Assembly: GCF_044324875.1 (NCBI RefSeq)
Contig: NZ_CP172185.1
Direction: 5' to 3' (one strand)
Source of the DNA: Escherichia coli
GTDB lineage: Bacteria > Pseudomonadota > Gammaproteobacteria > Enterobacterales > Enterobacteriaceae
Length of the DNA: 64,000 bases
Shown here: positions 3,128-35,535 of the stretch, in pieces
Layout of the letters: the number at the start of each line of letters is the position of its first letter
Position numbering within the stretch: the stretch's first letter is position 1
Notes under the pieces: model-generated
What the model saw: the letters and a program-made list of their open reading frames with translations, nothing else
Databases searched by the model: none
Told to the model about the DNA's origin: nothing
Made by a program: the position numbers and the translations under genes

Positions 3128-3379
3128 ATGTTCCGTTGTCCCCTATGCGGTGCATCCGCACGTATCCGCACCAGTCGCAATGAAAATGATTCAGGCACAG
3201 TTCGCCTGAAGTACTACCAGTGCAATAACCTCGAATGCGGGATCGGCTTTACCACACTGGAGGGTTTTAACAAATTCACATCAAAACGCGCCCCGTCGCC
3301 GCAGGGTACAGAGCGGATACCGTGGGAAGATTTTCCGGGATCTCACAGGGGGAATGCTCAGATGAATCTTGATATTTAA
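3128..3379 (+). CDS. ogr: Ogr/Delta-family zinc-finger late-gene activator
   Basis: 83-aa ORF with N-terminal MFRCPLCG...YYQCNNLECG Cys4 arrangement typical of P2 Ogr; lies directly after the gpD-like gene. Confidence 0.6.
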   Translation: MFRCPLCGASARIRTSRNENDSGTVRLKYYQCNNLECGIGFTTLEGFNKFTSKRAPSPQGTERIPWEDFPGSHRGNAQMNLDI

Positions 3380-3497
3380 GAACAATAATCAGGTTGAGAG
3401 GACATCATAAGGCAAGTAGATTAACGGCAGATACTTTCCCGCAACCACGGGCAAGTATTTAATTATCCATGATGAAATATGACCTAAATTGTTTTTT

Positions 3498-3524
3498 GCC
3501 CGCCGGAAAGCGGGCATTTTTTTA
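3498..3524 (+). terminator. Rho-independent terminator T1 (GCCCGCCGGAAAGCGGGC + T-run); first of 8 near-identical copies
   Basis: Perfect GC-rich hairpin followed by 7-9 T residues, read directly from the sequence. Confidence 0.7.
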
Positions 3525-3737
3525 TTCTTTTGTGGTTATGGGGTCATCAGGAACCACGTGCAGATTATATTTTTGTTTTTTTGGCGTTCCTCCGGCAGCA
3601 ACGAGTTCATCAATAAGACACTGACACGCCTGAACATCCCGGGCATGTCTTAGTTTCACCTTTATTGATTTAACCTTATCCTCACCGGAGGAGAAATGCA
3701 GTTCAATCTCAATATCGTTTCTTCGGAACAATCTCAT
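3522..3737 (-). CDS. Hypothetical small protein (71 aa) whose N-terminus MRLF[R/H]RND[I/V]EIELHFSSGEDKVKS recurs in the repeat units
   Basis: N-terminal 26 aa conserved in a second copy (ATG at 4907, AGGAGG 7 nt upstream) and partly in a third (around 5550); overlaps antisense to a plus-strand mini-ORF. Confidence 0.3.
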   Translation of the reverse strand: MRLFRRNDIEIELHFSSGEDKVKSIKVKLRHARDVQACQCLIDELVAAGGTPKKQKYNLHVVPDDPITTKE

Positions 3738-3749
3738 ACGCCCCCCTGA
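3696..3749 (+). CDS. Mini-ORF MQFNLNIVSSEQSHTPP (17 aa) with strong SD; candidate leader or small peptide
   Basis: GGAGGAGAA immediately before the ATG; a second copy at 4866..4922 encodes MQFNLNIVSVEQPHKTTS; the third copy has lost its ATG. Confidence 0.25.
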   Translation: MQFNLNIVSSEQSHTPP

Positions 3750-3962
3750 ATATATCAGAAATGCTAGTATCGAAAAATGAGAAAACAGTTAGACAGGAGA
3801 AACATATTAACACAAATCATTTATACCTATAGATGAAATTATAATTTCATTCATGAATATGATAGATAACTATATTGTGAACAAAATGAAAAATGGCTAA
3901 ATTAAAAATGGGCATGGAGGAATGCCCGGTTATCAATATAATGTGACGTAGATCATTGTTTT

Positions 3963-3990
3963 GCCCGCCGGAGAGCGGGCATTTTTTTTG
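3963..3990 (+). terminator. Rho-independent terminator T2
   Basis: GCCCGCCGGAGAGCGGGC hairpin + T8. Confidence 0.7.
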
Positions 3991-4190
3991 CGCCTGCCAT
4001 CGAGGCGCCTTCCCTGGCGCACACAAAGCAGCCCTGATTTTCCATGAAAACTTCAGGGTTGAGCTGCGGGCACAAAGTGAGTAGATTAGCTACGGGTACC
4101 TCCCCCTGACAACAGGAAGGGTGTCCATTATCCATGATATACAAACGAAAAGTCTTGTTTTTTGCCCGCCGAAGCGCGGGCATTTTTTTA
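3990..4190 (+). ncRNA. Candidate ~200-nt terminator-bounded sRNA unit (B1)
   Basis: Begins after T2 and ends with T3; contains internal stem-loops (GCGCCTGCCATCGAGGCGC; CCCTGATTTTCCATGAAAACTTCAGGG); three paralogous copies elsewhere in the array. Confidence 0.3.
4164..4190 (+). terminator. Rho-independent terminator T3
   Basis: GCCCGCCGAAGCGCGGGC hairpin + T-run. Confidence 0.7.
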
Positions 4191-4315
4191 TGCATCAGAC
4201 AAGATACAGCCCACCCCAACTGACACCTGAAATATTGCCGCAACAAAAAGAAACAGTTAAATTACGCGCGGGTGCCTTTCGGCTGATGGCCGGAGGGAAA
4301 ACCTGAAGGCCGGAT

Positions 4316-4549
4316 GTGGAAAGGCCCCGGAAAACATTTCTGTTTAACCGAGGCCCTAACCGCATTACCTTGACAAGTGAAAGGTTAGCGCCTCTCCGGA
4401 AAAGGAGCAAGTGCTATGTCGCAAAAATCGCTTACGGCCATCACGTTCTGCGTGACGGCAATCCTCATCATCTGGATATTGCACGGTTCGCTGTGCGAAA
4501 TACGGATGAGCTTCTGGGGAGCGGAGTTTGCGGCGTTCTTACAATGTAA
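4316..4549 (+). CDS. mok: mok-like overlapping reading frame of hok locus 1
   Basis: 77-aa ORF in a different frame overlapping almost all of the hok ORF, the arrangement characteristic of hok/mok/sok loci. Confidence 0.45.
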   Translation: MERPRKTFLFNRGPNRITLTSERLAPLRKRSKCYVAKIAYGHHVLRDGNPHHLDIARFAVRNTDELLGSGVCGVLTM

Positions 4550-4556
4550 GAAGTAA
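4416..4556 (+). CDS. hok: Hok/Gef-family type I toxin (46 aa)
   Basis: MSQKSLTAITFCVTAILIIWILHGSLCEIRMSFWGAEFAAFLQCKK: hydrophobic TM segment followed by the Hok hallmark SLCEIR motif; GGAG SD upstream; strong terminator downstream (~4650-4690). Confidence 0.75.
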   Translation: MSQKSLTAITFCVTAILIIWILHGSLCEIRMSFWGAEFAAFLQCKK

Positions 4557-5134
4557 GGAAACCGCGACGGGGGAGCAATCCCCCGTCAATCGGTTGCCAG
4601 GGTAAGGTCGATAAGGCACCCTATCTCACAGACATGAACAACAAACCCGCAGCATAAAAACTGCGGGTTTTCTTTTTGGTGTCCTCACCGACTTGAAACA
4701 GTGATCAGACTATAAGACAAAGCCCGCAATGTTGCGGGCTTACTCTACCTCTCGAAAATGTGGTCACTGCGTGGACATACGCTGATACAAATCCTTTATA
4801 TCAATAAATTAAATCTTTGTTTTTTTCATCAACAATGATTTAACCTTATCCTCACCGGAGGAGAAATGCAGTTCAATCTCAATATCGTTTCTGTGGAACA
4901 GCCTCATAAGACAACCTCCTGAATTCATCAGAAACACAGTCAACTGAAAACCAGAAAGCAGACAAACAGTGGACACACATTAATACAAATCATTTATACC
5001 TATAGATGAAATTGCAGTTTCATCTATAACATGACAGGTAACAATATTGTGAAAAAACTCAAAACTCGTTAGATTAAAGACGGACAGAGCAATGCTACTT
5101 TATCAATAACATGTAACCTGTACTTCCTTATTTT

Positions 5135-5161
5135 GCCCGCCGAAGCACGGGCATTTTTTTT
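5135..5161 (+). terminator. Rho-independent terminator T4
   Basis: GCCCGCCGAAGCACGGGC hairpin + T-run. Confidence 0.7.
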
Positions 5162-5360
5162 GCGCCTGCCATCGAGGCGCCTTCCCTGGCGCACACAAAG
5201 CAGCCCTGATTTTCCATGAAAACTTCAGGGTTGAGCCAAAAGCACAAAGACAGTAGATTAACCACGGGTGCCTTCCACCTGACAACAGGAAGGGTGTCCA
5301 GTATCAATGACAGACAACTCACATTGCTGTTTTGCCCGCCGGAAAGCGGGCATTTTTTTA
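5162..5360 (+). ncRNA. Candidate sRNA unit (B2)
   Basis: Paralogue of B1, bounded by T4 and T5. Confidence 0.3.
5334..5360 (+). terminator. Rho-independent terminator T5
   Basis: Identical hairpin to T1 + T-run. Confidence 0.7.
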
Positions 5361-6210: not shown

Positions 6211-6420
6211 TGCATCAGACAAGATACAGCCCACCCCAACTGACACCTGAAATATTGCCGCAACAAAAAGAAACGGGTGCCTTTCGGCTGATGGCCGGAG
6301 GGAAAACCTGAAGGCCGGATGTGGAAAGGCCCCGGAAAACATCTGTGTTTAACCGAGGCCTGACCCTTCCTACCGTGACAAGTGGAAGGTTAGCGCCTCT
6401 TTGTAAAAGGAGCAAGCGCT

Positions 6421-6561
6421 ATACCGCAAAAAACGATTATTGTTGGCATTTTATGCCTGACAATAACCCTGGTCATCTGGATGGTCCACGATTCGTTATG
6501 TGAATTCAGCTTTGATATCTGGGGAGCGCGTTTTGCGGCGTTCTTGCAGTGTAAACCGTAA
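6421..6561 (+). pseudogene. hok: Second hok-like toxin copy with ATG replaced by ATA (possible pseudogene)
   Basis: In-frame translation (I)PQKTIIVGILCLTITLVIWMVHDSLCEFSFDIWGARFAAFLQCKP keeps the TM segment and SLCE motif, but the position of the start codon reads ATA; the mok-like frame (6321..6503) is shortened. Confidence 0.5.
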
Positions 6562-21808: not shown

Positions 21809-21896
21809 GGTGAGGTGTCCGAGTGGCTGAAGGAGCACGCCTGGAAAGTGTGTATACGGCAACGTATCGGGGGTTCGAATCCCCCCCTCACCGCCA
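21809..21896 (+). tRNA. serW: tRNA-Ser (anticodon GGA)
   Basis: 88-nt sequence GGTGAGGTGTCCGAGTGGCTGAAGGAGCACGCCTGGAAAG...GGTTCGAATCCCCCCCTCACCGCCA with long variable arm and encoded CCA. Confidence 0.9.
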
Positions 21897-22057
21897 TATT
21901 CAAAGAAGAGCTCGTACGAAAGTGCGAGCTTTTTTTTCGCATATTGCACTCCAGGGGGGATGAGAAGCCCCGACCGGGGTTCGACAACTGGCGCAGCCAG
22001 TTGGACAGACCACGAACACAGTGAGTGGGCTGCCCGCAGGGCGAGCGAAGCGAGTCA

Positions 22058-22112
22058 ATCCCCCCTCACCGCCATATTTAAAGAAAAGCTCGTACGAAAG
22101 TACGAGTTTTTT
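22058..22112 (+). repeat. Direct repeat of the tRNA-Ser 3' end (18 nt) plus its terminator
   Basis: AATCCCCCCTCACCGCCA followed by AAAGAAAAGCTCGTACGAAAGTACGAG+T-run duplicates 21879..21940 with few mismatches. Confidence 0.7.
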
Positions 22113-22416
22113 TCGCATTTTATCTGCCTGTACGGCAGTGAACGGTATAAAAATCGAGTTTTTCTTTCGGTTGGCTTTCTAAGCTGCCTGTACGGCAGTG
22201 AACTCAAATACTACACGTTTAGTCCGTTATTAATAAAGCAAAACCATCTCATTTTCCTGCTACCACCCTTTTTTATCCTTACCTTCCCGCAGCACTAATT
22301 ATCAACAACTTACCATCATCATCAAAAAAAGGGGCTGAACCTCCTCCACCCCATAAACAAAAAGTCCGTAACCTCTTTCGAGATTACGGACTTCACCAAC
22401 CTACCTAACAATTAGA

Positions 22417-31956: not shown

Positions 31957-32998
31957 TATTAGCGGTAAGCTGTGCGTAGGCCAGCAAATGCGGGATTATT
32001 GCCCCTGTATATTCCGGCTCTCTGATAATGTGGTCGGATGTGTTGATTAAATAGTTTGTGCGAAAAATGCACCTGTAACCATCAGTTAACAACGGATATA
32101 CAGGGGGGACCATGAATGATAAGGGGGTGCCGTTTGATGTGCTCCTGCAAAAGCTGAATGCTGCACGCGCCGCAAGGGAACGTGAGCGCATGAGTAATAA
32201 CCCTGTCCCTCCTGAATTACCTCGCCCTGAACATTTTCCGCTTGAGGATTTCATCAGGGGACGAATCCGAACAAAACGATAACCGCCGCCGTGATATGAG
32301 GCATCACGACGCAATGCATTACAGGTGAGCACCATGAACAAATCCATATTATCCCCCACAGTTCTGGACGTAAACACAAAGCAGCGACAGATATTATTAC
32401 GCGCCGTCATTAAAGCCAGACACGAGAAATTAAACCAAATCTTAAGATAAGATACGCCGCTACCGCTGTAAGTCTTCATCAGAAACAGAAAACGCCAGAG
32501 CAGATGAGCACGGAGGTAACTCTTTATGAAAATAAACGAATCAGGGGAAATTACCGAAGCCAGCGTGGTACGCCAGCGGAGGCGGGAACGACGGGTACGG
32601 CCCCCCGCGCCATCCGATAATTTCCCGCTTGAGCGCTTCATCAGTGAACGGCCCCGCATACGCTGGAACGGCACAACCCCATACCCCGAGGAGAGACAGA
32701 CAAAAAACAAACAGCGATGATGAAATCTGGAGGCCAATACCATCACCCAGCCAGTCGGGGATTGCTGGCGGGCTTCCTGTTCGCTGGTGGCCCCGATGGT
32801 AATAACGCGTGGTTGTGCTGTGCTCAGGGCGATAAAACGCCAGATGTATTTATTCAGGTTGTGCGGGTCCCGCCCTTGCGGGTGTGTGGTATGATTTAAC
32901 ATAGCTACCTCGATACGCTTTCTATCGTTGGTGGTTAGAAGCCCCGTTACTGCTCCAACAGTGCGGGGTTTCGTCGTTTCTGCACCTTTCATCAACAA

Positions 32999-33051
32999 GG
33001 TGTTGAACACCAATTTAAGCCTAGGTGTTAAACACGCCAAGTGTTGAACAC
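32999..33051. promoter_or_regulatory. Three palindromic operator-like sites (GTGTTGAACAC, GTGTTAAACAC, GTGTTGAACAC)
   Basis: Three copies of an 11-bp palindrome spaced ~20 bp apart, ~50 bp upstream of the RHH-like small ORF. Confidence 0.55.
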
Positions 33052-33100
33052 TTATTTTTTTCCTGCATACTGCATTTGTTTTTTGTAAGGGGTACACAAC

Positions 33101-33279
33101 ATGGCGACAAAAGCAGTAAACGCAAAATCACAAACAGTTGCGGCAAGGGTTCCGCATGAAGTTATGAACAATGTTGAGGCGGTAAAAATGCCTGGTGAAA
33201 GTACAGGGCAGTTTGTAACAGCAGCATTAAAGCGAGAAGTTGAATACCGCCAGCGCCGCAAGGCCAAAGAATCAGAATA
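33101..33279 (+). CDS. Ribbon-helix-helix-like small DNA-binding protein (59 aa), divergent from the island operon
   Basis: MATKAVNAKSQTVAARVPHEVMNNVEAVKMPGESTGQFVTAALKREVE fits an RHH beta-alpha-alpha pattern; AAGGGG SD. Confidence 0.4.
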
Positions 33280-33328
33280 ATCACTATCAGCGCCGTGGTG
33301 TGAGGTACTGCGGCGCATTGTTTTAAAG

Positions 33329-33529
33329 GTGATAATTATGAATAACCAGGAACTACAAAATAAAGCATTATCAATTATCATGCGCCAGCGTGAGAAAACC
33401 CGCAGGGAAATAAATAAGGCATTAACCCGCACTGAAAATCTTAAAGTTCCTGATAAGTTCGCCCTTGATCCTTTTGTCGAGAAATACCCTCGGCGCTTAA
33501 AAGCAAACAAAAACCGCCCACCTGGCTGA
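33329..33529 (+). CDS. Hypothetical small basic protein (63-66 aa) downstream of the RHH gene
   Basis: ORF with AAGGTGA SD; possible two-gene module with the RHH gene. Confidence 0.3.
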   Translation: MIIMNNQELQNKALSIIMRQREKTRREINKALTRTENLKVPDKFALDPFVEKYPRRLKANKNRPPG

Positions 33530-33667
33530 CAATCCACCAGCAAGCCACCACACTGGACACATTGCCCACCAGCCAGCAAATCGCTATGATGTTCGGGCTT
33601 ATGTTTAGTGTTTTCCCATTGGCGACCGCCCCCGGTCGCCTTTGTTTTATGTGTCATATACTCCCCT

Positions 33668-33877
33668 TTACGCTGCCTTGCCTGAATTAATGCGATCCCG
33701 GCTTTTAACCCATTCCATAACCTCGGACAGCAGCCAACCTACAGAACGCCCACCAAGATTACGGCGAGACGGAAAGCTCCCTTTTTTCTCCAGTTCGTAG
33801 CGTGTAGTGCGACACACTCCAGTTAACTTACGACATTCATCCTCACGGATTACGCGATCTTCATTTATTTCACGCAT
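33668..33877 (-). CDS. alpA: AlpA/Vis-family phage transcriptional regulator (69 aa)
   Basis: MREINEDRVIREDECRKLTGVCRTTRYELEKKGSFPSRRNLGGRSVGWLLSEVMEWV matches the AlpA (P4 Vis-like) HTH family; the track ORF is extended upstream. Confidence 0.7.
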   Translation of the reverse strand: MREINEDRVIREDECRKLTGVCRTTRYELEKKGSFPSRRNLGGRSVGWLLSEVMEWVKSRDRINSGKAA

Positions 33878-34296: not shown

Positions 34297-35535
34297 TCAA
34301 GAATTTTGGGGGTAAATTCGCGGGGTCATAACAACGATTTTTTCATCATTGTTCTGGAGAAGCTCGAGACGGTCTACCCATAGATTAAGAGCGTCACGCT
34401 TTGCATCGAGATAACGGGAGTGGTTATAGACGCGTTGCATTCCTGGCATCTGGTGGGCAGTAAGCTGTTCGACAATATGCGGATCCACGCCTAAATCGTT
34501 CAGCATGGTTGTAAATGTGTGCCGGATGTCGTGCAACGACCAGGGGGCTTGATTAATGCGTCTGTGTGCCGTTCTTCCGTACTCTGCTACGGATGATTGC
34601 CCTTTCAGTTCTCCAAGCAATAAGCCCGTGTGCCTGTTCTGCTCCACCAGCTTCATGACGAACGGCAAGATCGCTTCCGGTATTGGCCTGAATATTGCTA
34701 CCTTCGTTTTGCTGTGTTCTTTCGGCACAGTCCAGAGCATTTCTTTAAAATCCCATTCCCGAACCTCGGAGCGTCTTAGCTCAGTGGTACGGCATCCGAA
34801 GACAATCAGAAGGCGAATTAAAGCGCTGTAGTACGGCGGGAAAATTTTTTCATCCAGTGCGCGGAGTAGCTCGCCAAGCTCCTTGTTTGTTAGCACTCGC
34901 TCGCTTATTTCTGCTTTTTTTCCCACATCACCTACGACCATATCATCAAGAACGTTACTGACGGCGTAGCGACGTTTACGGCAGTACTTAAGCGCCTGTT
35001 TGCATACCTGCAACAAAAAGCCGGCTGATACCGGATTACGCTTAGCAAGCTGGTCAAAACAGGCCAGCCAGTGGCGTAGCTCGCATTTATCCAGCGGCAT
35101 AGCACCAATCTGGCTGATTATGTGCTTATTGATACGGCTTTTCAGTGATTCGTGGTCAGTGCGCTTTTCCTTCGCATACGACTCAAGCCAGTAAGTGAGC
35201 GCGTCCTTAACCGTCACGGGGGCTAACGCTTCCTGCACTGTGTGATTAAGCTCATGGCGTGGATTTTTCCCCTCCGCCAGCCAGGCGCGACACTGTGCCG
35301 CTTTTTCCCTGGCTGCTTTCAGGCTCAGATCGGGATAGTTGCCCAGTCTCAGGCGTTCCGGTGATACCTGCCTGCCAGTTCCGGCCCTGTAAGTGAAATA
35401 CCAGGTTAACAGGCCGCTGGTGGAATGTCTTACGCTAAGATTGCCACCGTCATTAAAAAAGGCGTTTTTTGTGGTTGGTGATCCGCTTAATTTTCGTAAA
35501 AGAGTGTCGCTAAGTCTATGAATTGCGCTGCTCAT
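34297..35535 (-). CDS. int: P4-type tyrosine integrase (412 aa)
   Basis: C-terminal catalytic region with HDIRHT and RVYNHSRY motifs; att repeat 25 bp upstream of the start. Confidence 0.85.
   Translation of the reverse strand: MSSAIHRLSDTLLRKLSGSPTTKNAFFNDGGNLSVRHSTSGLLTWYFTYRAGTGRQVSPERLRLGNYPDLSLKAAREKAAQCRAWLAEGKNPRHELNHTVQEALAPVTVKDALTYWLESYAKEKRTDHESLKSRINKHIISQIGAMPLDKCELRHWLACFDQLAKRNPVSAGFLLQVCKQALKYCRKRRYAVSNVLDDMVVGDVGKKAEISERVLTNKELGELLRALDEKIFPPYYSALIRLLIVFGCRTTELRRSEVREWDFKEMLWTVPKEHSKTKVAIFRPIPEAILPFVMKLVEQNRHTGLLLGELKGQSSVAEYGRTAHRRINQAPWSLHDIRHTFTTMLNDLGVDPHIVEQLTAHQMPGMQRVYNHSRYLDAKRDALNLWVDRLELLQNNDEKIVVMTPRIYPQNS

What the first reader, a model, noticed from the sequence alone, without database searches (positions are those of the whole stretch)
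31990..33660. 1.6-kb region with only small ORFs: triple palindromic operator, divergent RHH-like gene and duplicated micro-ORFs
Between alpA and the replication module the only long minus-strand ORFs have junk-like composition. Instead there are three GTGTTGAACAC-type palindromes (32999-33051), a divergent RHH-like 59-aa gene (33101-33279), a following 66-aa basic ORF, and two plus-strand micro-ORFs (about 32112-32280 and 32526-32720) sharing a ...FPLE(D/R)FI... motif. This looks like the island immunity/derepression switch, or possibly an RHH-antitoxin/toxin pair, and is where helper sensing probably occurs.
Basis: partly seen in the sequence, partly recalled or inferred. Interest (0 to 1): 0.5.

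Follow-up and report, generated by a model that had tools for sequence, protein, structure and literature searches.

The report
Two-strand control region of a phage satellite
The apparently gene-poor 1.6 kb is the control region of an E. coli phage-satellite island: one strand is kept free of stop codons for about 660 codons, while the other strand carries a small repressor gene, tiny protein genes and an unannotated antisense RNA, which suggests how such islands stay silent.

Summary
Exactly three GTGTTRAACAC palindromes occur in 64 kb (0.05 expected), together with the 59-aa gene, the 63/66-aa ORF and the two FPLExFI micro-ORFs.

- It starts with its own ribosome-binding site right after alpA and ends in an Icd/Kil-like domain of the same family as phage P4 Kil.
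- The equivalent frame is stop-free in 12 of 16 related loci and split into overlapping frames in the other four, this window included. Randomisations that keep the plus-strand proteins never reproduced it (0/3000 in each of eight loci).
- Its amino-acid sequence is not conserved. It therefore looks like P4 eta: translated so that alpA-driven transcription reads through.
- Here it is broken only by a T7-versus-T8 homopolymer difference.

On the plus strand, wobble opposite wobble, lie:
- a YlcI/YnfO-family, probably RHH, repressor whose N-terminal residues change together with the operator sequence;
- an Escherichia-only micro-protein family sharing an FxLxxF motif;
- a new ~85-nt structured RNA antisense to the Icd start site, absent from Rfam.

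No C4/CI RNA is present. A toxin-antitoxin pair and helper sensing at this site are not supported. All function is inferred.

The parts
33668..33877 (-). alpA-like HTH gene (AlpA/Vis family); its stop codon is at 33670-33668
   Evidence: phrog_2790 'excisionase and transcriptional regulator', E 7.5e-17. PGAP annotates a 210-nt HTH CDS in sister genome L001.
33052..33657 (-). Upstream part of the eta-like stop-free ORF. It has an SD AGGGGAG (33667->33661) and ATG 33657 directly after the alpA stop. It runs antisense through orf63 and ylcI.
   Evidence: Sequence and ORF list. No stop in this frame from 33741 to 33054, against 17 and 8 stops in the other two minus frames; 1 of 20000 randomisations was stop-free.
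33055..33061 (.). T7 homopolymer (A7 on the minus strand). This is the only break in the long minus frame. It also lies in the spacer of the candidate rightward promoter.
   Evidence: The window has T7; L001, L002 and L019 have T8. All five near-identical genomes are one base longer over the 2401-base query. Adding one T gives a single 662-codon ORF, as in L001.
31670..33097 (-). Downstream part of the eta-like ORF (475 codons from GTG 33097; open from 33127). It consists of leader, Icd/Kil-like domain, the antisense of the 0.7-kb insert, and the C-terminal part of a phrog_2512 protein.
   Evidence: The middle 225 codons were stop-free in 61 of 20000 randomisations that keep the plus ORFs, and in 2 of 20000 without that constraint.
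32735..32902 (-). Icd/Kil-like (Phage_ASH-type) gene: ATG 32902, SD GAGGT at 32911->32907. Its natural C-terminus and stop are replaced at a recombination junction near 32735-32741.
   Evidence: NF033153, E 1.8e-13; phrog_6196, E 1.9e-44; phrog_1743, E 1.1e-16. P4 Eta/Kil hits the same NF033153 (E 1.2e-20) and phrog_1743. Junction.
32887..32895 (+). Candidate extended -10 promoter (TGgTATGAT) of the antisense RNA
   Evidence: A TATGAT, TATAAT, TATGCT or TATATT hexamer lies a few bases upstream of the element in all 16 copies, including three other genera.
32901..32986 (+). Candidate ~85-nt antisense small RNA with two stem-loops; the second is followed by a U-rich tail. It is complementary to the Icd-like start codon, SD and 5' leader.
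   Evidence: MFE -35.2 kcal/mol (z -5.2) on the plus strand against -22.2 (z -1.05) on the minus strand. Consensus fold -32.5 against -15.6 kcal/mol. In 16 sequences, 95.4% of cells are paired, 6 pairs show compensatory change, and many G.U pairs are valid only on the plus strand. No Rfam family matches.
33000..33051 (.). Three operator palindromes: O1 33000-33010, O2 33025-33035, O3 33041-33051
   Evidence: Equivalent positions in relatives carry other repeated sites that change together with the RHH-like protein.
33012..33040 (-). Candidate leftward promoter P_L (-35 TTGGCG 33040->33035, 17-nt spacer holding O2, -10 TAAATT 33017->33012; start near 33005, inside O1)
   Evidence: Read from the sequence. 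A -35-like TTGACA, TTGACG, TTGAAG or TTGAAA, 17-18 nt, then a TAnnnT hexamer sits at the same place in six operator types (sequences). The tool's consensus scan did not find it.
33044..33071 (+). Candidate rightward promoter P_R (-35 TTGAAC inside O3, 16-nt spacer with the T-run, -10 CATACT) for ylcI-orf63
   Evidence: Read from the sequence. A -10 TATACT or TATATT lies at the same place in relatives. The tool's consensus scan did not find it.
33101..33280 (+). YlcI/YnfO-family 59-aa protein, the probable RHH repressor of the operators
33290..33316 (+). Conserved hairpin between ylcI and orf63. A diverged copy lies at 32287-32311 after ORF56.
   Evidence: (repeat D1). The hairpin plus the following RBS precede micro-ORFs in all loci examined.
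33338..33529 (+). 63-aa FxLxxF micro-protein (ORF63)
   Evidence: PGAP CDS in L001. Homologues of 52-57% identity. Family of 75 clusters, all Escherichia or Shigella, all 'hypothetical'. AF2: long helix 3-33 and a short motif helix 44-49, pLDDT 83.
33621..33650 (+). Intrinsic terminator of the plus-strand ylcI-orf63 unit, embedded in the first codons of the eta-like ORF
   Evidence: Terminator scan. It is conserved in relatives, where its antisense encodes the ORF's N-terminus MTHKTKAT / MAGKTKAT.
32112..32282 (+). ORF56, an FxLxxF micro-protein paralogue inside the rare insert
   Evidence: An identical protein is on record (P0008).
32334..32450 (+). ORF38, a decayed paralogue. It is homologous to the N-terminal part of the 67-aa L007 protein, has in-frame stops at 32448 and 32469, and a remnant of the motif at 32463-32482.
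   Evidence: repeat D3; hit H35.
32526..32720 (+). ORF64, an FxLxxF micro-protein paralogue; its stop lies at the junction with the Icd-like gene

Best explanation
The region is the regulatory zone (the published 'Bro zone') of a Gram-negative PICI-type phage satellite. It is built on the plan of the phage P4 vis-eta/kil immunity region, but with a different immunity device.

Shown here:
- On the minus strand one ORF starts with its own SD and ATG (33657) ten bases after the alpA stop. It stays free of stops across everything in between and ends in an Icd/Kil-like domain of the same family as P4 Kil.
- In this island the ORF continues through a 0.7-kb insert into the next gene: 662 codons in the sister genome. 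In this window it is split only by a T7-versus-T8 difference at 33055-33061.
- Its openness is conserved but its amino-acid sequence is not.
- The plus strand, with its wobble positions opposite those of the long ORF, carries a YlcI/YnfO-family gene, FxLxxF micro-protein genes and a structured ~85-nt RNA.

Inferred mechanism:
1. In the silent state the RHH-like YlcI protein, made from P_R together with ORF63, binds O1-O3 and shuts the leftward promoter P_L.
2. The antisense RNA pairs with the start codon, SD and leader of any P_L transcript. The Icd-like gene is then not translated, and the untranslated RNA is terminated, presumably by Rho.
3. When a helper phage switches on the alpA promoter, transcripts enter from upstream with ribosomes already translating the long ORF. 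As with P4 eta on PLL transcripts, that translation protects them from termination and from the antisense RNA.
4. These transcripts run against ylcI transcription and through the operators. Repressor synthesis falls, and the Icd-like and replication genes are expressed.

The micro-proteins probably act through their short FxLxxF helix on an unknown partner.
For: Island context:
- Integrase, alpA, DUF4222, primase, SSB, PerC, ProQ/FinO and terS all lie on one strand beside cspD.

Stop-free minus frame:
- It runs from the upstream gene to the Icd/Ash stop in W, L002, L003, L005, L007, L010-L012, L014, L015, L017-L019 and Providencia L094, for 309-674 codons.
- This frame has 0 stops against 15-34 in the other minus frames.
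- 0 of 3000 randomisations that keep the plus proteins were stop-free, in each of 8 loci. For the window the figures are 1/20000 (right part) and 61/20000 (middle).
- SD and ATG follow directly after the alpA stop. L001 has a 662-codon ORF.

Link to P4:
- The Icd-like domain and P4 Kil are in the same families.
- The P4 layout is vis - eta/kil - C4 RNA.
- The P4 eta mechanism, and its mention for PICIs, is summarised in PMC10111431, citing Forti et al. 1999 (PMID 10464191).

Which frame is selected as protein:
- Plus-frame replacements are conservative (mean BLOSUM62 about 0). Minus-frame replacements are radical (-0.8 to -1.6).

Repressor and operators:
- Operator type changes together with the N-terminal residues of the RHH-like protein, and not with the AlpA type or the Icd-like protein.

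Antisense RNA:
- Strand asymmetry, covariation, a -10 element and U-tracts.

Published experiments:
- AlpA is required for expression of the gene after alpA, and helper phages induce the alpA promoter (PMC6092414; PMC11773190).

Weak support for Rho sites:
- The minus-strand RNA has C-rich, G-poor stretches at 33100-33340 and 32780-32940.
Against: - There are no expression data of any kind. Both promoters P_L and P_R are weak consensus matches that I read by eye, and the tool's scan did not list them.
- The antisense-RNA promoter overlaps Icd-like coding sequence, so part of its conservation could come from the protein.
- Rho dependence is borrowed from P4 and not tested.
- Four of 16 loci, this window included, have the frame split into overlapping pieces. 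An intact frame is therefore not indispensable in every genome, or some islands are decaying.
- The insert at 32040-32730 is a single evolutionary observation: 9 genomes, all at least 99.7% identical.
Confidence: 0.6

Rival explanations
1. The long minus-strand ORF encodes a genuine multi-domain 'Bro-network/Ash' protein whose N-terminal segments are functional domains. On this reading the plus-strand small ORFs are by-products of that coding sequence.
For: PGAP annotates it as one 477-aa 'Icd-like protein'. Gene callers report 306-670-aa products with Phage_ASH in relatives. PMC10111431 treats such ORFs as Bro-network proteins with extra segments.
Against: - Nothing outside the Icd-like and phrog_2512 parts hits any family.
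- Replacements in the minus frame are radical while those in the plus frame are conservative.
- The plus-strand ylcI belongs to a curated family that also occurs on its own in lambdoid prophages, for example DLP12 ylcI next to nohD.
- Whole segments of the ORF are swapped between islands while only its openness is kept.
Confidence: 0.1
2. ylcI plus the following micro-ORF form a type II toxin-antitoxin (or abortive-infection) pair. The RHH antitoxin autoregulates at the palindromes, and the pair has nothing to do with island induction.
Against: - No toxin or defence family hit for any micro-ORF in NCBIfam, PHROGs or PADLOC.
- The partner varies from one to four tandem paralogues of 56-82 aa.
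- The predicted fold is one long helix plus a short motif helix, not a toxin fold.
- The operators overlap a conserved leftward promoter-like element that faces the Icd-like gene.
Confidence: 0.08
3. The structured element at 32901-32986 acts in the minus-strand mRNA, as a leader hairpin controlling Icd-like translation. Alternatively it is only the terminator of plus-strand transcription coming from the left. Either way it is not a separate antisense RNA.
For: The minus strand can also form two weaker hairpins. In this window plus-strand ORFs lie to the left, and transcription from them could end at stem-loop 2.
Against: - Six helix positions are mostly G.U on the plus strand and would be A.C mismatches on the minus strand.
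- The plus fold is 13-17 kcal/mol more stable, with z -5.2 against -1.05.
- Most relatives have no plus-strand gene to the left, yet keep the element, a -10 hexamer just upstream and a U-tract after it.
Confidence: 0.12
4. The stop-free minus frame is a neutral side effect of the phase and composition of the plus-strand genes and has no function.
For: With wobble opposite wobble, antisense stops need only T|TA, C|TA or T|CA, so long antisense ORFs are somewhat easier to obtain in this phase.
Against: - Randomisations that preserve the plus proteins and their codon pool give a mean of 7-25 stops and never zero (0/3000 in each of 8 loci).
- The frame also stays open across non-coding spacers, the operator region and the RNA element.
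- It always begins at the end of the upstream gene and always ends with the Icd/Ash gene.
Confidence: 0.03

Closest known systems
Phage P4 left-operon control region: vis (orf88) - eta/kil nested genes - cI (C4-family) RNA - seqA/seqC
   Same: - An AlpA/Vis-family gene is followed at once by a long ORF that ends in a Kil/Icd-like domain of the same family (NF033153, phrog_1743).
- That ORF overlies the internal control elements, and the replication genes lie downstream.
- The proposed logic is the same: translation from the upstream promoter makes transcripts insensitive to immunity.
   Different: - No C4/CI RNA and no isrK/seqA element is detectable, although both are found in P4 and in other islands.
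- The immunity RNA candidate is cis-antisense with its own promoter, not processed from the sense transcript.
- There are a protein repressor candidate and operators.
- The ORF is 3-4 times longer than eta and overlaps real genes on the other strand.
Phage P1/P7 immI region: c4 RNA - icd - ant (own knowledge)
   Same: An Icd-family cell-division-inhibitor gene whose ribosome-binding site is the target of a small immunity RNA.
   Different: The P1 c4 RNA is encoded upstream on the same strand and belongs to Rfam C4, which does not match here. No ant gene follows here.
Phage P22 immI region: Mnt and Arc (RHH repressors), the sar antisense RNA and ant (own knowledge)
   Same: The working parts are similar: small RHH repressor(s) at operators between divergent promoters, plus a short cis-antisense RNA that covers the ribosome-binding site of the controlled gene.
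'Bro zone' of Gram-negative PICIs (Mageeney et al. 2023, PMC10111431)
   Same: Same position, between alpA and the replication genes. That paper already notes Phage_ASH ORFs, the P4 eta mechanism and C4/isrK hits in some PICIs.
   Different: As far as I could find in that paper, it does not describe the plus-strand RHH-like gene, the operators, the micro-protein family, the antisense RNA or two-strand coding. It treats the unmatched ORF segments as possible protein domains.
YlcI/YnfO (DUF3950) proteins of lambdoid prophages DLP12 and Qin
   Same: The 59-aa protein is a member by the curated NCBIfam model. K-12 YlcI shows the same strand-helix-helix sequence pattern.
   Different: In DLP12 the gene stands alone, divergent from nohD. 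It is not embedded antisense in a long ORF. No function is published for the family.

Membership tests
P4 eta/kil-type read-through ORF | Long ORF that starts at the end of the vis/alpA homologue | tested here: met
   SD AGGGGAG and ATG 33657 lie 10 nt after the alpA stop. The stop-free frame reaches the upstream gene in 12 of 16 loci without a break.
P4 eta/kil-type read-through ORF | The C-terminal part is the Kil cell-division inhibitor | tested here: met
   The window ORF and P4 Eta residues 146-193 both hit NF033153 (E 1.8e-13 and 1.2e-20) and phrog_1743. Pairwise BLASTP was not significant. In this window the last ~8 residues and the stop are replaced.
P4 eta/kil-type read-through ORF | A CI (C4-family) immunity RNA and its seqA/isrK target lie inside the ORF | tested here: not met
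   No C4, isrK or c4-a1b1 hit even at E<=10. The same search finds them in P4 and in L005, L007, L009, L010 and L012.
P4 eta/kil-type read-through ORF | Translation of the ORF prevents Rho-dependent termination | not testable with these tools
   The only support is indirect: selection for an open frame without protein conservation, and C-rich, G-poor stretches in the minus RNA.
Rfam C4 antisense RNA (RF01695) | Match to the covariance model at the gathering score | tested here: not met
   The new element is on the opposite strand and has a different architecture.
YlcI/YnfO family (NF041551) | Score above the curated cut-off | tested here: met
   59.7 bits against a cut-off of 30, E 2.1e-16, covering model positions 1-42 of 42.
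Ribbon-helix-helix (Arc/MetJ/CopG) DNA-binding proteins | Strand-helix-helix topology with significant similarity to solved RHH proteins | tested here: inconclusive
Ribbon-helix-helix (Arc/MetJ/CopG) DNA-binding proteins | Binds repeated or palindromic operators through the N-terminal strand | tested here: inconclusive
   There is no binding assay. Seven operator types change together with the N-terminal residues of the protein and with nothing else in the locus.
Type II toxin-antitoxin pair | The second gene is a recognisable toxin, in a fixed two-gene unit | tested here: not met
   No toxin or defence family hit. There are one to four tandem paralogues. The predicted fold is a helical peptide.
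Gram-negative PICI | int and alpA co-oriented, followed by a regulatory zone, primase/replication genes and packaging genes, in an island of about 10 kb | tested here: met
   Annotation of the sister genome: int, HTH (alpA), DUF4222, primase, SSB, PerC, ProQ/FinO and terS between cspD and clpS.
Gram-negative PICI | Induction and transfer by a helper phage | not testable with these tools
   Known only for other islands (PMC6092414; PMC11773190).
cis-antisense regulatory RNA | Own promoter, a terminator, and complementarity to the target's ribosome-binding site | tested here: inconclusive
   A -10 element is conserved in 16 of 16 copies, a terminator-like stem is followed by a U-tract, and the RNA covers the SD (32907-32911) and the ATG (32900-32902). 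Expression was not tested.

The most novel reading that the evidence does not exclude
Gram-negative PICIs, for which no master repressor is known, may be held silent by a compact two-strand switch. It would consist of an RHH repressor with exchangeable operator specificities and a cis-antisense RNA. Both are written, together with a family of micro-protein genes, on the strand opposite a several-hundred-codon ORF that exists only to be translated. Helper-induced, alpA-driven transcription-translation of that ORF would override both brakes and collide with repressor expression. That would be a natural case of long antisense gene overlap kept by selection on both strands, present in about a third of E. 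coli genomes.
Probability: 0.35. Interest if true: 0.8.

Novelty: new variant of a known kind. Interest (0 to 1): 0.65.

Why it matters
- **Open question.** The literature on Gram-negative PICIs says it is unclear whether these islands have a global repressor (PMC6092414). This module gives a concrete, testable candidate: the YlcI-like protein, its operators and an antisense RNA. At least part of it is found in 1770 of 5426 complete E. coli genomes, with near-full-length matches in 607.
- **Annotation.** Current annotation, such as a 477-aa 'Icd-like protein', misreads the locus.
- **Overlapping genes.** The locus offers a statistically clean example of antisense overlapping reading frames. 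One strand is selected for protein sequence, the other only for remaining translatable.
- **A clean experiment.** The two wobble positions coincide, so stops can be put into the long frame by changes that are silent in the plus-strand genes. That allows a direct test of translation-coupled read-through.
- **New families.** It adds an RNA family that is not in Rfam and an Escherichia-specific micro-protein family with an invariant FxLxxF motif.

Tried and rejected
- **Rfam.** Searches at the gathering score and at E<=10 found nothing in the region. A C4/CI RNA is therefore rejected for this island.
- **BLASTP against P4 Eta.** The window's Icd part gave no significant match. Family HMMs later linked the two.
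- **Micro-ORFs.** PADLOC, NCBIfam and PHROGs gave nothing. PDB sequence searches gave nothing for the micro-protein or YlcI profiles.
- **YlcI model.** Foldseek was not significant.
- **Phage collection.** tblastn of YlcI and blastn of the insert found no match.
- **Search of protein representatives.** A three-sequence micro-ORF profile found only 7 proteins.
- **Wasted scan.** Most of the 120 hits were chance, and only Edwardsiella, Photorhabdus and Providencia were confirmed with the covariance model.
- **CFT073.** I fetched a region hoping to see EcCICFT073 and got the helper prophage at icd instead.
- **Literature.** Searches for YlcI/YnfO, Icd-like/ash and the RNA sequence found nothing relevant. 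Forti et al. 1999 is not held.
- **Programmed -1 frameshift.** The site A_AAA_AAA-TAA (minus strand, 33061->33055) fits formally. I set the idea aside because all close relatives simply carry one more base.
- **Repeat D6.** I considered that the repeat at 32151-32177 / 33237-33263 shows ORF56 to be a YlcI paralogue. I rejected this because the two copies are in different reading frames.
Full report
**Context.** The window is E. coli chromosome. Between cspD and clpS lies an island of about 10 kb whose genes are almost all on the minus strand. In order they are integrase (34297-35535), an AlpA-like HTH gene (33668-33877), the region in question, DUF4222, a primase (29429-31177), SSB, PerC, ProQ/FinO and a small terminase subunit. 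This is the layout of a Gram-negative phage-inducible chromosomal island (PICI). In such islands AlpA is the activator, and helper phages induce its promoter (PMC6092414; PMC11773190).

- GTGTTRAACAC occurs exactly three times in 64 kb, at 33000, 33025 and 33041, where 0.05 matches are expected.
- The 59-aa ORF at 33101-33280 is a YlcI/YnfO-family protein (NF041551, 59.7 bits).
- The next ORF (63 aa from ATG 33338) is annotated in a sister genome.
- The micro-ORFs at 32112-32282 and 32526-32720 share the stated motif.

PGAP calls 31670-33103 one 477-aa 'Icd-like protein'. HMM scans split that ORF into three parts:
- an Icd/Kil-like part (NF033153, E 1.8e-13; phrog_6196, E 1.9e-44);
- a 225-codon stretch with no relative;
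- the C-terminal 120 residues of a phrog_2512 protein.

The minus strand has no stop in one frame from 33741 to 33054, and none in the adjacent frame from 33127 to 31672. The two frames meet in a T7 run at 33055-33061. The 99.9%-identical genome L001 and the relatives L002 and L019 have T8 there. All five near-identical genomes are one base longer than the query. With T8 the ORF is 662 codons, running from an ATG at 33657 to the stop at 31670. That ATG is preceded by AGGGGAG and lies ten bases after the alpA stop.

**The open frame is conserved; its protein is not.** I examined 16 related loci: the window, L002-L005, L007, L009-L012 and L014-L019. They have different integrases, AlpA types and contents.
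- In 12 of them a single stop-free minus frame of 309-674 codons runs from the end of the upstream gene (alpA or antA) to the stop of the Icd/Ash-like gene. In the other four it is split into overlapping frames.
- A Providencia locus shows the same arrangement, with 324 codons.
- That frame has 0 stops, against 15-34 in the other two minus frames.
- In randomisations that keep the plus-strand proteins and their codon pool and shuffle the spacers, 0 of 3000 replicates were stop-free in each of eight loci.
- For the window the figures are 1/20000 for the right part and 61/20000 for the middle.
- Where variants differ, replacements are conservative in the plus frame (mean BLOSUM62 about 0) and radical in the minus frame (-0.8 to -1.6). 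This holds for ylcI and for the micro-ORFs.
- All plus ORFs lie in the one phase in which the wobble positions of the two strands coincide.

**Relation to P4.** P4 has vis (an AlpA homologue), then the 199-codon eta ORF whose end is kil, with the CI RNA (Rfam C4) and seqA (Rfam isrK) inside it. P4 Kil and the window's Icd-like part hit the same NF033153 and phrog_1743 models. For P4 it is published that translation of eta from the upstream promoter prevents Rho-dependent termination and makes those transcripts insensitive to immunity. The source is Forti et al. 1999 (PMID 10464191), which I could not read here; it is summarised in PMC10111431. That paper also notes C4/isrK hits in some PICIs. 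I found such hits in L005, L007, L009, L010 and L012, but none in the window, L002, L003 or L004, even at E<=10 in the window.

**What replaces the CI RNA: a repressor candidate.** Between the Icd-like start (ATG 32902) and ylcI, every variant carries about three copies of a short site at equivalent positions, but the site differs between variants.

| Loci | Repeated site | N-terminal residues of the YlcI-like protein |
|---|---|---|
| Window, L002, L019 | GTGTTGAACAC | SQTVAARV |
| L014, L016 | GTGTAAGACAC | SQSVTARI |
| L015 | GTGTATTTCAC | SQMTTVRI |
| L018 | GTG(C/A)ATCGCAC | SQQLNARF |
| L010, L016 (second copy), Providencia L094 | TGTGTAATGTGTA... | Arc-like ...PPFQFRLDPDL |
| L009 | GGTAATTACC, twice | a further Arc-like type (...PPYQMRLPEEF; sequence translated from sister locus L011) |
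| Photorhabdus L028 | GGTAGTTACC, twice | not determined |

- The site type tracks these N-terminal residues. It does not track the AlpA type or the nearly invariant Icd-like protein.
- The protein models as an extended N-terminus plus two helices.
- K-12 YlcI has the same sequence pattern.
- The RHH assignment is therefore likely but not proven.
- A -35-like hexamer, a 17-nt spacer holding the middle site, and a TAnnnT hexamer face left at the same place in six operator types. This is a candidate counterpart of P4 PLE. The tool's scan did not list it.

**What replaces the CI RNA: an antisense RNA candidate.** The 85 nt at 32901-32986 fold much better as plus-strand RNA.
- MFE is -35.2 kcal/mol (z -5.2) on the plus strand against -22.2 (z -1.05) on the minus strand.
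- The consensus fold is -32.5 against -15.6 kcal/mol.
- Several helix positions are G.U pairs that would be A.C on the other strand.
- A covariance model found the element in Edwardsiella, Photorhabdus and Providencia, and in further E. coli islands.
- In 16 sequences 95.4% of cells pair, and six pairs show compensatory change; 1 of 500 shuffles reached that number.
- The second stem is followed by a U-rich tail, which is a plain T-run in several variants. A TATGAT-like -10 lies just upstream in all 16 copies.
- The RNA would cover the Icd-like start codon, the SD and almost the whole leader.
- No Rfam family matches it.

**The micro-proteins.**
- ORF63, ORF56, ORF64 and at least a dozen relatives share a basic helix and an invariant or nearly invariant F-x-L-x-x-F motif.
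- The family comprises 75 clusters, all from Escherichia or Shigella, all unnamed.
- The model is a long helix plus a short motif helix.
- One to four copies occur per island, each preceded by a conserved hairpin and RBS.
- ORF38 (32334-32450) is a decayed copy with in-frame stops.
- The left-hand cluster lies in an insert found in only 9 of 5426 genomes. It is homologous to part of the alpA-Ash interval of L007-type islands. I could recognise no promoter there. It replaced the end of the Icd-like gene and the start of the next gene while keeping the frame open.
- Their function is unknown. I found no support for a toxin.

**Model (inferred).**
1. In the silent state P_R expresses the repressor and ORF63. 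The repressor closes P_L, and the antisense RNA blocks translation of any leaky Icd-like message, which is then terminated.
2. After helper-induced activation of the alpA promoter, ribosomes translating the long ORF carry transcription through the converging ylcI unit, the operators and the RNA target into the Icd-like and replication genes.
3. No step has been tested experimentally. The decisive experiments are listed separately.

**Verdict.** The region is a new variant of the P4-type immunity and read-through region, with well-supported two-strand coding, a new RNA candidate and a candidate PICI repressor.

Noticed in passing
window 22176-22203 (-): A single perfect type I-F CRISPR repeat (Rfam CRISPR-DR4, 50.1 bits) stands alone next to a tRNA (21809-21893), an RtT element (21940-22074) and clpA. 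There is no second copy in the window, even allowing 3 mismatches.
   Followed up: partly
window 33055-33061; L009 near 3730: Frame breaks in the long ORF fall in homopolymers. The window has T7 against T8 in relatives; L009 has an eight-T run where sister locus L010, judged from its translation, has about one T fewer. These could be real mutations, a slippage-prone switch that also changes the promoter spacer from 17 to 16 nt, or assembly errors.
   Followed up: partly
window 33290-33316 and 32287-32311; L007 3965-4000 and 4250-4285: A conserved hairpin (GCGCCGTG...ACGGCGC) followed by ATTG..CAGG and an ATG precedes each micro-ORF. It is far better conserved than the flanking ylcI gene. Its role is unknown (processing site, attenuator or mRNA stabiliser).
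   Followed up: partly
L009-L012 about 3300-5200; L016: Some islands stack two control modules inside one long ORF. An RHH/operator/antisense-RNA module with a leader remnant comes first. It is followed by a P4-type isrK/C4 module, which contains two C4 copies in some islands.
   Followed up: partly
L001 9071-10504 (= window 31670-33103); L003 4452-5372: RefSeq annotation is inconsistent for this locus. The same frame is called as 67-aa, 306-aa or 477-aa 'Icd-like protein', or as pseudogene fragments. The plus-strand genes are sometimes dropped.
   Followed up: yes
L141 (E. coli K-12) 6252-6446: The family's name-giver, ylcI of prophage DLP12, lies divergent from nohD (small terminase subunit), with palindromes in the 388-bp spacer. 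It may be a small repressor acting next to the packaging genes of lambdoid helper-type phages.
   Followed up: no
window 31478-31677 (-): The gene after the long ORF (phrog_340, start overlapping the long ORF's stop) is annotated as frameshifted in the sister genome. This suggests some decay of this island.
   Followed up: no
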